64,000 bases of DNA from Hormiphora californensis (taxonomy: Eukaryota; Animalia; Ctenophora), in the NCBI GenBank assembly GCA_020137815.1, contig CM035355.1:3658001-3722000 (forward strand), written 5' to 3'. Shown here one piece after another: positions 53,051 through 64,000 of the stretch (position 1 is the stretch's first letter; each line of letters opens with the position of its first letter). A program made the translations under genes and the position numbers. Under the pieces are notes generated by a model. That model was not told the DNA's origin. It saw only the letters and a program-made list of their open reading frames with translations, and did not search any database.

Positions 53051-54324
53051 TAGACAGAGACCTGATTCTTACCGATTTGTCTGGGTTAGAAGTCCAGTCT
53101 TTACTATGTCTCTTGTCTTTGACTGGGGATGCTAGCTGGATAGGTTCAGGGTTGGGAAGTGGTAAGAGAAGCAAGAACCACTAACAGACTAAGGATAAAG
53201 CTGAAAAGACTAAGGATACAGCTGAAAAGAACCGACTATGCAACTGGCAACTACAAAACTAAGCACTCTGACCAAGAGGCCAGAGAGTCGAAGAGAAGGT
53301 GTACAAAACACACAGATCGAAACTCCTCAAATCGGCACCTAACAGGGAGGAAGATAAAGCCAGCGGCAGGAGAGCAAGAGCACTAACCCAACGGAGGGAA
53401 GACCAGAAGGAAAAGGAAACTGGAAGGAAACGTACTGCCGAGGGAGCAGGGCAAGAGAGAGAAAACGGGAGAGAGAGAAGAGAGAGAGAGAGGAGAGAGA
53501 GAGAGAGAGAGAGAGAGAGTTAGAGAGAGTGAGGAGAGAGAGTAGAGAGAAGAGAAGAGAGATATTGAGAGAGAGAGAGAGAGAGAGAGAGAGAGAGAGA
53601 GCTAGCACAACAACAATAACACGGGGCAAAGTCAAAACAACACCTGGGAACCCGATTGACTGCCACACCGAACTGCAGGAAGGGGACTGGGGAGCTGCCG
53701 GTCGCCGGATATGGTCTGGACGGTTGACTCTGGATGGAGACTCAGAGATGGTACTGATTGAGCTAATAAGGTTCCACCTGCCCAGGTCCAGGAAAGTGCC
53801 CTGTAATTGAGCTTGTCCTGAAATGTTCTGAGAATTGCTAAAGTCAATAAATACGATAACTGGGAGACTCATATTAATCCCAAATATTAAGGAAGGGGGG
53901 GTTAGGGGGATTGTGAAATATGCATGAGGCGCCAAGCATGAGGCGCACCCTTCCCTCTCTTATCCACCGTCTCCGCCTCAATCCGGAAGCCCCGTGCTAA
54001 AAAGTAAGGATCTAAATCCTAAATACTGAGAAGGGTAGAAGTGACCTGAGAAAAACTGCTGGAGGTAAGATATGCCGTACCTGAGAGGAATAAAAAATAA
54101 GGGAACTTACCGGAAGAAAAGAACAAAACACAGCGCTCTCCCTACACACTCCTCCTACTAAAACCCAAATACCCTCCAAAAAACCTGCTCTAGAGAAAGG
54201 GGTACACTACTCCTAGAAAGAGAGGGAAACTAGACAGAAACAAGAAAAAAAAAAGAAAAAAAGGGCCCTGACAAGAGAAACACAAGTGCCTTACTACTCA
54301 ATGAATGACAATAACATAACAGCC

Positions 54325-54472
54325 TGACAACTACGACAGAATACACCAGACTGACAACTACGACAGAATACAACAGACTGACAACTACGACAGAATACAA
54401 CAGACTGCCAACTACGACAGAATTCAACAGACTGACAACTACGACAGAATACAACAGACTGACAACTACGAC
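54325..54472. repeat. 27-bp minisatellite (GACTGACAACTACGACAGAATACAACA)
   Basis: 5-6 tandem copies. Confidence 0.9.
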
Positions 54473-55952
54473 AATCTTATCTGATTTGTTGCGATGAATG
54501 CTTGTGGCTTTGATGTAACCATCTGCAGATGTGGTTGAATCTTGGGTCCTCGTCCGCAGAGATCCGGATACACACACACACATTTCTCTCACACTATGTA
54601 ATCACTGATACTCTCTCGAGGTATACAACATTTCACAAGGGGGGGGTAAGAGCCCCATAAACAAAACGTACAAGAAATTTGGCAGTCAATGTCACGCGAT
54701 ACCTCCACTCGTTATAAAAAACAAAGAGACGAAAGAGAGAAAACGGTGAGAGAGAGAAAACCAAGTACTAGAGAGAGATCACGAAGAGAAAACACCGGCG
54801 GCAACAGCCGGTAAATATCTTATCTCCATTTGTGATTATATTTGCAGGGTGTGTATTATACTGATTAGGGAACATATCGGGTTACTAGGTTGCAACTGTT
54901 CACGAATGGCCCATTCGTCGAATGGGGGGGGGGGGTCATCAGATAAGTTGTTGAGACAACAACAGATAAGAGAGCAACTCTGCGTAAACATATGCACCAA
55001 CACATCTGACACCCAACATCCCAGTGAAGCTTGTATTAGAAAAGATTTCTCTTTTCTTATTAAAGACCGGGCCGAAGTAGTATGACAAACCATCCCCTAC
55101 TGACCTCTCTCTCTCTCTCTCTCTCCTGACTCTCCCACCCCGTATAACCCAGCCACTTTTGTCGACACGCTAGTGTCTCCTTTAGTAGACATTGGCTAGG
55201 TTATATGGATGCAATGGGGATAATTCTAGGAAAAAAGAAGGCTGGGGTTATTGAGAAGCCTAGGTTACAGGACCTAACTAGGTTACAAAGAGCCTAGGCC
55301 CTAGAGGTATCATGTGACATGATAGGGGAGCCAATAAAACATACAATTTTCTCACTATCCAAAACTAGCATAATATCATTAAGTTAGCACTGGGACTAAG
55401 GGAACTGCATAGCAGGTGGACGGCTCTGTAAGATAGCAAGTGTATTTTCTCAAAACTATATGAACACAGTTCAACTCAAATTTACAGACTGCAGGTAGGA
55501 TCTATTTTTCGTTGCTTCGCTAGCTCGGAGGGGGCAGGGTTCGAAATTCGAACTCTCACGCATGCTGCGTGATATTCCTGAGTCTAGTGAATCTCCCCTC
55601 TACTTCTATTCTCCTCTAGACACAGATCCTCTTTCTTCTTCTCTCTCTCCCTATATTTTTCTTCTCTCTCACTCCCTCTTTAATGTTTCTATTTGTCTAG
55701 AGCAAAAGGACCCGAAAAGGATCAGAAATCGACCGTCGCGACTTTTCGTCCTTTTCTATGTTTATTTTAGTTGGCTTGAGGAATTTTCTACTGCCACTAG
55801 CAACAAAGAGAGAGGGAGAGAGAGGGAGAGAGAGAGAGAAAGAGAGAGAGAGAGAGAGAGAGAGAAAGAGAGAGAGAGAGAGAGAGAGAGAGAGAGAGAG
55901 AGAGAGAGAGAGAGAGAGAGAGACCGAGGGACGATTTAGTTTACATCCTCTC

Positions 55953-62400: not shown

Positions 62401-63340
62401 GGAGAGAGAGGGGAAAAGGGAGGGGGGGAGAGAGAGATTTGAGGGGGAAGAGGGGGAGAAGAGGGGAGGGGAGAGAGAGGGAAAAAAGAGAAAAAGGGGA
62501 AAGAGAGACGAGAGAGAGAGATGAGATGGGGAGAAAAGAGAGGGGGGGAAGGAGAAAGGGGGGGGTTTATGTTTTACACGCACTGGGAGAAAAAAACCCC
62601 AAATTTATTCCCTCAACCCTTGTCCCTCACTTCCTTTTGTCGTCATTTGCCCGGGTTTTGTCTTCGATCGTAAGTGGAATCACTTCTAGCCTGGGGGAAG
62701 AAGGAGTACGGGGTGAGAGGAAGGAGAAAAGGGGGCGGGGAGAGGGGAGGTACAGAGAGAAGTTTAAATGATGAATTTTGGGTTTGGGAAAAACCCCCGA
62801 AAAAAAGGGAAAAATTTTAGAGAGAAGAATAGAAAGTAAAATTTGTGGTTTTAAGAGAAAAGCTGAAAAGCAGGGAAAAAAAGGGAAAAGAGTCTTTGTG
62901 AGGGGAAAGCGAGAAGAAAAAACTCATTTTTTTGGGCCCGCTTTACCCAAAGGACAGCGATATCAAAAATGTCCTTTGTACATTGGGGAATTAGGCTATT
63001 GTAGTTTTGGGAGATTTTATTGCAATAAAATCACGATAGAAATATACCCAAAAAGGTTTTTTTCAACTGGGAAAACCCCCCAACGAAAATTATACCTTTT
63101 CTTTGCTTTTTTACTACTAAGGGGAACCCGACGAATGAGGTAGAGATGGAAAGATAGAGAGAGAGGGCAATAGAGAAAAAGAGAGTGAGAGAGAGAGAGA
63201 AAGAGCAAATATAAAGAGAGATAGAAAGAATGATACGAACCTGTAAATTTCGAGACGCAGCGAATCAAGAACTGTCCGTATATGTTCAAAACACATATCG
63301 AACTTTTCTTGGAGAGCACCCAGTGGGTTCATAGGTTCCC
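56483..63340 (-). CDS. Divergent STAT-like gene (STAT-B): coiled-coil end, DNA-binding domain and linker exons; probably extends beyond both stated limits
   Basis: Eight consecutive in-phase GT-AG exons (60727-60602, 60268-60150, 59906-59795, 58576-58406, 57509-57412, 57176-57057, 56942-56834, 56647-56483; 340 aa) encode ILLSFVMVRQP, APEELFSF, SRPLAILVHANQKPPAEGKLFW, GRELSLRELDYL and SFWLWFHEVMSYL, in STAT order. Upstream candidates: ~63340-63241 (GEPMNPLGALQEKF) and 62690-62631. Confidence 0.75.
57841..57959. repeat. palindromic MITE-like element in a STAT-B intron
   Basis: TATATCTCCGGTTCCTGAT..GACTTCATC pairs with GATGAAGTC..ATCAGGAACCGCAGATATA. Confidence 0.6.
58284..58392. mobile_element. 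109-bp hAT-type MITE with 8-bp target duplication
   Basis: ATAATCTC|CAGGAACCGACCGAA...TTCGGTCGGTTCCTG|ATAATCTC. Confidence 0.88.
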
Positions 63341-64000
63341 CCGGGTTAAAGAGAGACATAGAGGGGAGAGAGACATAGGGGGGGGAGAGACATAGGGGGA
63401 AAGGGAGAAAAGGGGGAGAGAGATCCCAGTTTCTACTAGCAGAAAAATCCCCATTCTGGGACTTGTATCTTTCACAGGGGGGGGGGGGAGCGACAATAAT
63501 TTTTACCAAGGTATATATCCAAAAATAGAATCCCCAAATTTTTCGAAAAAATTTAAAAGATTATAAAGTTAAGAGGGGCATTTTAAAACTTGCATTTTTT
63601 TAAAAAATTTTCGAATTGAAAAAAAAAGTTGGTTCCAAAAAAAATTTTTTCCGATCAAAAAGGGATCTTTTTAGGGGGAAATTTTGTTTGAGCTCTTTCG
63701 GGGCCTGAATCGAAACTCAACATTTCTTTTAAAATCCCCATTTTTAAAAAGATTTAGCCCCCCCAAACTAAAGGGAAAGAAATCAAAAAAAACCCTTTTT
63801 CGTTTTCAGGAAAATCCCCCCCCCAACTTTTTGGGATTTACCCCCTCACTGACAAAAGGAGTGATCTGTACTGTTTGGCAGGGGTTTCGAAGATAGGTAA
63901 AACTGTTTGTGACCAAGGCAAACCAGCGACTGCATACAAAAAATGCCCCCCCGGCCCACATGATAACTTTGTGCTAAAAAGGGCTTTTTTTTAGACATTC
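60900..64000. other. low-quality, homopolymer-inflated sequence (probably unpolished long read)
   Basis: Pervasive G/A/T/C runs. Recognisable repeats (the MITE at 60750, AG tracts) become garbled. Confidence 0.7.

What the first reader, a model, noticed from the sequence alone, without database searches (positions are those of the whole stretch)
53646..63930. Hidden second, highly divergent STAT-like gene in tandem with a canonical STAT
Seen: eight in-phase exons (60727 to 56483) encode STAT DNA-binding and linker motifs in the right order but far diverged from STAT-A. Examples: SRPLAILVHANQKPPAEGKLFW vs SLPVTVIVHGSQSPAAEATIFW, APEELF vs VTEEKF, SFWLWF vs FTFWDW. There is also a basic insert (LKRRNKEAYPVQTQKRK) in the DNA-contact region. 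Established: VTEE and SLPVVVI are STAT DNA-binding-domain signatures, and invertebrates usually carry one or few STATs. Inference: this is an old tandem duplicate with altered DNA specificity. My recollection that ctenophores were described as lacking a complete JAK/STAT pathway is unverified, but would make a two-STAT cluster notable.
Basis: partly seen in the sequence, partly recalled or inferred. Interest (0 to 1): 0.8.

Follow-up and report, generated by a model that had tools for sequence, protein, structure and literature searches.

The report
Hidden second STAT gene in ctenophores
Next to an ordinary STAT signalling gene lies a second, spliced and conserved STAT-like gene so diverged that domain databases miss it; a comb jelly has a full-length counterpart, and it likely works as a nuclear gene regulator without the usual tyrosine switch.

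Summary
The gene is real. Eight minus-strand exons (60727-56483) splice in frame without a stop. An oligo-dT RNA run shows 4 of the 4 junctions in the stretch laid. All 14 listed exonic differences to a related species are synonymous. The 333-aa core is 57% identical to an 867-aa 'uncharacterized' Bolinopsis microptera protein and 21% to the canonical STAT 16.5 kb downstream.

Pfam finds nothing in the exons or the orthologue. A STAT profile (35.9 bits), HHalign (95%) and ESM Atlas models show STAT architecture from coiled coil to SH2. So it is an old, conserved second STAT, older than the split from Bolinopsis.

Corrections: the 'basic insert' is the normal basic loop lengthened by about 9 residues into an NLS-like motif, and altered DNA specificity is not shown. 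The orthologue keeps the SH2 pocket residues but probably lacks the activating tyrosine (unresolved). In this window the SH2 exons are missing, more likely through a faulty assembly than a true loss, and 53646-56480 holds no detectable part of the gene. Divergent second STATs are known (STA-2, Dd-STATb); none was found described for ctenophores in 10 searches.

The parts
63240..63323 (-). STAT-B upstream exon (coiled coil, orthologue 168-195); ends not fixed, flanks error-rich
   Evidence: tblastn E 8e-4, 54%; frameshift-aware score 77 against shuffles 37-48
60602..60727 (-). Core exon 1: end of coiled coil and start of DNA-binding domain
   Evidence: AG/GT; 51% to orthologue; aligns with the FII..QPPQ start of STAT DNA-binding domains
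60150..60268 (-). Core exon 2 (acceptor 60268 by the orthologue; an in-frame acceptor at 60313 also exists)
   Evidence: no RNA laid here
59795..59906 (-). Core exon 3
   Evidence: AG/GT, phase 2 to 0; 42% to orthologue; no RNA laid here
58406..58576 (-). Core exon 4: lengthened basic loop with bipartite-NLS-like pattern, EE pair
   Evidence: 63% to orthologue; RNA joint at 58406; 8 of 8 listed substitutions synonymous; pattern in both STAT-B proteins, 0 of 3 canonical STATs
57412..57509 (-). Core exon 5: last strands of the DNA-binding domain
   Evidence: RNA contig matches the exon end to end, 0 differences, joints on both sides
57057..57176 (-). Core exon 6: end of DNA-binding domain, start of linker
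   Evidence: RNA joints on both sides; 64% to orthologue
56834..56942 (-). Core exon 7: linker
   Evidence: RNA contig, 0 differences, joints on both sides
56483..56626 (-). Core exon 8: end of linker (FW.WF motif, conserved basic KGKGK); its donor sits where the orthologues also leave the exon
   Evidence: RNA joint to 56626; P0006 and P0007 about 50% identical
53646..56482 (.). No SH2 or tail exon found; repeats (palindrome 55953-56111, (CT)n 55807-55923, 27-mer array 54318-54473)
43829..53039 (.). Error-rich 38-bp satellite between the two STAT genes
   Evidence: TRF 67-75% matches, 13-19% indels
31867..39940 (-). Canonical STAT-A: 16 modelled exons, 807 aa without stop (first exon not fixed; a 120-nt in-frame intron 39450-39331 probably still included); SH2 and GY activating tyrosine present
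   Evidence: Pfam on 5 single exons: STAT_bind 1.9e-7, STAT_linker 0.002, SH2 0.001; 54.6% to full-length STAT P0002

Best explanation
This is a spliced, conserved second STAT-family gene (STAT-B) beside the canonical STAT, which likely arose by an old tandem duplication and likely acts as a non-canonical nuclear STAT that is not switched on by its own tyrosine. Shown: the exons, four junctions in RNA, purifying selection, a full-length orthologue in Bolinopsis, STAT homology of DNA-binding domain and linker. Predicted: coiled coil to SH2 fold in the orthologue. Inferred: the lengthened basic loop imports it into the nucleus without phosphorylation; it binds DNA through the kept STAT contacts; its SH2 still docks on phosphotyrosine (for example of STAT-A or a receptor) but no reciprocal pY-SH2 homodimer forms, so it sets or damps STAT-A output. 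The SH2 exons missing from this window are inferred to be an assembly loss. Identity as a STAT paralogue about 0.95; the mechanism about 0.5.
For: Exons in frame. RNA run X10: 4 of 4 junctions in 55945-59130, all canonical, repeat-free introns uncovered. 14 of 14 listed exonic substitutions synonymous against 0.216 expected, 12 of 12 listed indels intronic. Orthologue XP_063681729.1, 56.7% over 328 aa; two more exon-8 relatives among 1.84 billion proteins. HHalign 95.4%, E 1.6e-8, residues 422-639, running into the SH2. ESM Atlas: feature score 0.92, 10 of 10 best named hits STAT; 474-490 residues aligned with STAT5A-like, STAT6, STAT4 models; residues 590-702 match SH2 models at TM 0.55-0.74 (one source). 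Pocket-like K609, R630, S632, E633, S634 kept (their roles are recalled). Tyrosines after the SH2 Arg lie at +39, +65, +113; in STAT-A and P0002 the YY pair that ends the SH2 is at +61/+62 and the GY tyrosine at +72; the orthologue's WYKP resembles STAT5 YYTP seen. Bipartite basic pattern in 2 of 2 STAT-B and 0 of 3 canonical STATs.
Against: No functional data. Y695 can also be aligned with the activating tyrosine (2 of 8 pairwise global alignments come within a few columns; the profile aligned nothing past residue 637). The SH2 alone is weak in sequence (2.0 bits, 28 of 2000 shuffles as high; Atlas feature score 0.81, a lead only). Pfam 0 families and PDB sequence search 0 STAT hits for the orthologue. 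Only 1 of 7 intron positions is firmly shared with STAT-A (mean 0.07 by chance). SH2 and tail exons are undetectable in the window. The NLS is a regular-expression match only.
Confidence: 0.55

Rival explanations
1. STAT-B is a canonical, tyrosine-activated STAT that has merely diverged: Y695 is its activating tyrosine, it homodimerises and reads its own DNA sites (closest to the first reader's idea).
For: SH2 pocket residues kept; Y695 is 65 residues after the SH2 Arg against 72-73 in four canonical STATs; an alternative register pairs KFTY with KFLY and brings Y695 near the GY; DNA-binding domain has about 35 extra residues and one Lys-to-Gln change.
Against: +65 is nearer the structural YY (+61/+62); Atlas structural alignments to STAT SH2 models run on to 692-696, so Y695 sits at the end of the fold; His, Gln and EE contacts are kept.
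Confidence: 0.3
2. In the window's own species the gene is truly truncated after the linker and encodes an SH2-less DNA-binding STAT, a possible repressor or dominant negative.
For: No SH2 or tail match anywhere in 64 kb (scores 37-41 against shuffles 33-49) while control exons score 65-114; 54650-56480 is not visibly error-rich; exon 8 reads through to a stop after 10 codons.
Against: The exon-8 donor lies where two relatives also leave the exon; the exon for orthologue 196-255, which must lie between 60727 and 63240, is missing too, in sequence with 201-336 homopolymer bases per kb, so this assembly drops exons; a 9-kb error-rich satellite separates the genes; no AATAAA within 700 nt of the read-through stop.
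Confidence: 0.2
3. The exons are a decayed duplicate or a chance resemblance.
For: 0 of 8 exons hit Pfam; 3' third missing in the window.
Against: Spliced RNA, synonymous-only substitutions, 57% identical full-length orthologue with two RefSeq isoforms.
Confidence: 0.02

Closest known systems
STAT5/STAT6-type STATs, including the neighbouring STAT-A
   Same: Domain order coiled coil, DNA-binding, linker, SH2; VH-x-x-Q, EE and FW.W motifs; canonical P0002 is closest to STAT5A in the PDB (E 3e-68).
   Different: Only 20-22% identity to 5 canonical STATs; no Pfam hit; longer DNA-binding loops; 13-residue basic insert before the SH2; activating tyrosine not identifiable.
C. elegans STA-2
   Same: Divergent second STAT beside a canonical one; lacks the tyrosine phosphorylation motif yet acts as a nuclear regulator (PMC5587905, PMC8607625, passages).
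   Different: STA-2 lacks the coiled coil; the STAT-B orthologue keeps a helical N-terminal third. No orthology tested; an independent origin is assumed.
Dictyostelium Dd-STATb
   Same: Aberrant SH2 region; constitutively nuclear, independent of its tyrosine (PMC3135261, passages).
   Different: Dd-STATb has Leu for the SH2 Arg; STAT-B keeps the Arg.
Linked or lineage-specific STAT duplicates (vertebrate stat1/4, stat2/6, stat3/5; Anopheles retrocopy)
   Same: Linked STAT pairs and fast-diverged duplicates are a known pattern (PMC3670131, passages).
   Different: Here both genes have introns, and divergence is so deep that Pfam fails; that paper has 0 occurrences of 'ctenophor'.
Bolinopsis microptera LOC134816700 (XP_063681729.1, XP_063681730.1)
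   Same: Orthologue, 56.7% over 328 aa, same exon ends where visible.
   Different: Annotated 'uncharacterized protein'; has N-terminal, SH2 and tail parts not found in this window.

Membership tests
STAT family | DNA-binding domain of STAT type | tested here: met
   Profile 35.9 bits; Atlas structural match to STAT_bind clusters. Pfam STAT_bind itself gives no hit.
STAT family | Linker domain | tested here: met
   Profile and HHalign cover it.
STAT family | Coiled-coil domain | tested here: met
   Orthologue model aligns with STAT_alpha parts from residue 119; one such exon in the window. Sequence score alone not significant (-1.1 bits).
STAT family | N-terminal interaction domain | tested here: inconclusive
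   Helical N-terminus that aligns loosely; only 1 of 10 Atlas structure rows starts before residue 114; not in the window.
STAT family | SH2 domain with the invariant Arg | tested here: met
   In the orthologue only: R630 kept, SH2 models at TM 0.55-0.74; weak by sequence alone. Not found in the window.
Canonical (tyrosine-activated) STAT | Activating tyrosine just after the SH2 | tested here: inconclusive
   Y695 fits either the structural YY or the activating GY; next Tyr is 48 residues on.
Canonical (tyrosine-activated) STAT | pY-dependent dimer, nuclear entry, GAS-site binding | not testable with these tools
   Needs experiments.
STA-2-like atypical STAT | Coiled coil absent | tested here: not met
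   Coiled coil present.
Dd-STATb-like STAT | SH2 Arg replaced | tested here: not met
   R630 present.
Complete JAK-STAT pathway in the host | JAK gene in the same genome | not testable with these tools
   No genome held.

The most novel reading that the evidence does not exclude
Ctenophores carry a second, ancient STAT lineage that Pfam and BLAST-type surveys cannot see, which reads phosphotyrosine but has no activating tyrosine and is imported by its own NLS: an independent invention of a phosphorylation-independent STAT in a very early animal branch, possibly cut down to an SH2-less form in this species.
Probability: 0.35. Interest if true: 0.7.

Novelty: new variant of a known kind. Interest (0 to 1): 0.52.

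Why it matters
Ctenophores have been described as lacking JAK/STAT or having the fewest parts, and surveys depend on Pfam or on BLAST at 30% identity or more, which miss this 20%-identity gene. A conserved, expressed second STAT changes the gene count for a key early lineage, names an 'uncharacterized' RefSeq protein, and gives a natural pair (STAT-A, STAT-B) for testing whether STAT function without tyrosine activation is ancient or repeatedly evolved.

Tried and rejected
Pfam on the 8 single exons: 0 of 8; Pfam could not be run on the spliced product, so that test rests on the orthologue (0 families). Word search with exon 4: 1 candidate, none scored. Metagenome scan with the exon-8 alignment: 0 of 573 pattern matches confirmed. 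Exon-fragment alignment A5 was misaligned and not used as a profile. A terminal exon at 56325-56252 was considered and dropped: no likeness to the orthologue, and introns are alignable to organism B as well. P0008-P0010 (3 of 5 hits) are repeat proteins and were dropped. RNA? run X14 laid 1 record, on a repeat only; X10 has no contig over the 3' end of exon 8: no evidence either way. A second shared intron position appeared in one alignment but not in another, so only one is counted. The 7-row tree separates B+orthologue (100/100) from A+P0002 (100/99) by a long stem but has no named outgroup, so it neither dates nor roots the duplication. No complex prediction was run (phosphotyrosine cannot be modelled; a pass would reflect solved STAT dimers). 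Earlier findings: 5 look-ups, nothing.
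Full report
OBSERVATION. On the minus strand eight exons (60727-60602, 60313-60150, 59906-59795, 58576-58406, 57509-57412, 57176-57057, 56942-56834, 56647-56483) have AG/GT ends and join to 355 codons without a stop. The canonical STAT-A lies 16.5 kb downstream on the same strand; 16 modelled exons give 807 aa without a stop, with SH2 and GY tyrosine. 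No whole genome is held.

IS IT A LIVE GENE? Of 14 runs listed, four were laid on 55945-59130 and the oligo-dT metatranscriptome X10 again alone. Two X10 contigs match exons 5 and 7 with 0 differences and show 4 of the 4 junctions in the stretch, all CT..AC on the plus strand; the last uses the acceptor at 56626. The support is thin: depth 3.3-3.7, 22-39 letters on the short side, one run. In two DNA-like runs of a related organism, 40 of 62 substitution rows were shown; 14 fall in exons and 14 of 14 are synonymous, against 0.216 for random single changes (0.216^14 = 5e-10, transition bias ignored). The 12 indels shown (of 28) are all intronic.

ORTHOLOGUES. Exon 8 against 1.84 billion representatives gave 5 hits; two are about 50% identical exon ORFs (P0006, P0007) and three are repeat proteins. 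Their profile found one full-length protein among 989 candidates, P0019, whose cluster holds XP_063681729.1 and XP_063681730.1, 'uncharacterized protein LOC134816700' of the ctenophore Bolinopsis microptera. It matches all eight exons and one more at about 63240-63323 and fixes the core at 333 aa, 56.7% identical over 328 aa. The host is therefore inferred to be a ctenophore. STAT-B is 20-22% identical to five canonical STATs, while STAT-A is 63.6% identical to P0002 over the same span. So the duplication is older than the split from the Bolinopsis lineage, and both copies are now constrained to a similar degree (the species of P0002 is not named, so rates are not strictly comparable).

IS IT A STAT? 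Pfam finds 0 of 8 exons and 0 families in the full-length orthologue, and the PDB sequence search no STAT. A profile of STAT-A and four relatives scores the spliced core at 29.0 bits (shuffles max 4.9), the refined core at 35.9 and the orthologue at 35.5. HHalign gives 95.4%, E 1.6e-8 over 422-639. The ESM Atlas gives STAT for 10 of the 10 best named feature hits (top 0.92, 208 features) and aligns its model (pTM 0.56) with STAT5A-like, STAT6 and STAT4 models over 474-490 residues (TM 0.46-0.49 by query, 0.53-0.58 by target); residues 590-702 match SH2 models. Both AlphaFold2 jobs failed (pLDDT 31-36). One of seven intron positions is shared exactly with STAT-A, weak support on its own.

ANATOMY. 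The EE pair and the His and Gln of VH-x-x-Q are kept; the Lys of the first DNA-binding loop is Gln in both STAT-B proteins. That these positions contact DNA in STAT1, 3, 5 and 6 is recalled, not tested. The 'basic insert' is the homologue of the STAT basic loop, 35-36 against 26-27 residues with 7 against 6 Lys+Arg; it forms a bipartite-NLS-like pattern in both STAT-B proteins and none of three canonical ones. The orthologue's SH2 keeps Lys, Arg, Ser, Glu, Ser at the pocket positions. Its tyrosines lie 39, 65 and 113 residues after the Arg; canonical ctenophore-type STATs have the YY ending the SH2 at 61/62 (2 of 4) and the GY at 72-73 (4 of 4). WYKP resembles STAT5 YYTP and structural alignments end at 692-696, so I favour, at about 60:40, that the activating tyrosine is lost; sequence alignments do not settle it.

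THE MISSING 3' THIRD. Orthologue segments for SH2 and tail score 37-41 anywhere in the window, within six shuffles each (33-49), while three control exons score 65-114. The ORF at 53339-53959 is not part of the gene. An internal coiled-coil exon is missing as well, in visibly error-rich DNA, and a 9-kb error-rich satellite separates the genes; the exon-8 donor coincides with that of the relatives. Assembly loss is put at about 75-80%, true truncation at 20-25%. A random misjoin would hardly place the two STAT genes together, so adjacency is taken as real; linkage in other species was not testable.

MECHANISM. Most likely (about 0.5): a STAT that enters the nucleus by its basic loop without phosphorylation, binds STAT-type DNA sites, and uses an intact SH2 pocket to dock on phosphorylated STAT-A or receptors, thereby tuning STAT-A. 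All these steps are inferred. Rival: an ordinary pY695-activated STAT with its own targets (0.3).

LITERATURE. Ten searches found no description of a second ctenophore STAT; the library lacks most subscription papers, among them Liongue 2016, seen only as a reference. Passages read: PMC13749725 names STAT ML09844a and putative JAK ML11617a in Mnemiopsis (5 supplements searched without a hit, 2 PDFs unreadable); PMC11193209, ctenophores have the fewest Jak-Stat proteins; PMC4583530, JAK/STATs absent; PMC13203501 traces STAT to Porifera, lists no ctenophore among screened taxa and used 30% identity as cut-off (12 of 15 places); PMC11797021 has 0 occurrences of STAT or JAK; PMC3670263 and PMC3670131 have 0 of 'ctenophor'; PMC5587905 and PMC8607625 on STA-2; PMC3135261 on Dd-STATb. 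No paper was read whole.

VERDICT. A real, conserved, unannotated STAT paralogue of ctenophores. Divergent second STATs are a known kind; this one differs from STA-2 (keeps the coiled coil) and Dd-STATb (keeps the SH2 Arg). Interest 0.52.

Noticed in passing
window 39450-39331 (-): Probable 120-nt intron without stops inside the second modelled STAT-A exon; removing it closes a gap of about 38 residues against P0002.
   Followed up: partly
window 10178-11356 and 11834-13192 (-): Two tandem long ORFs, alike to each other, with signal-like start, weak Ig-domain Pfam matches (E 0.001-0.007, under cut-off) and a transmembrane-like segment: paralogous Ig-like receptors.
   Followed up: partly
window 4731-6138 (+): Rhodopsin-family GPCR in two ORFs (7tm_1 E 9e-11 and 3e-9).
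   Followed up: partly
window 14081-23107: A non-LTR element with endonuclease and reverse transcriptase (17410-20667, -) and a CCCH-finger ORF (20382-21935, -) lies between two plus-strand ORFs (14081-15733 with RVT_1 and SAP; 21932-23107 without Pfam hit), apparently one retroelement inserted in another.
   Followed up: partly
window 58283-58394: High-copy short repeat in the intron after exon 4, also abundant in the RNA run; lesser ones at about 56373-56479, 56692-56736 and 57871-57977.
   Followed up: no
window 54435-54643 and 40946-41147: Inverted 73%-identical pair flanking the satellite between the two STAT genes; possibly ends of related mobile elements.
   Followed up: no
P0003, P0004: Full-length STATs from unnamed records, 48% identical to both STAT-A and P0002 over the core: a deeper lineage or a third paralogue.
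   Followed up: no
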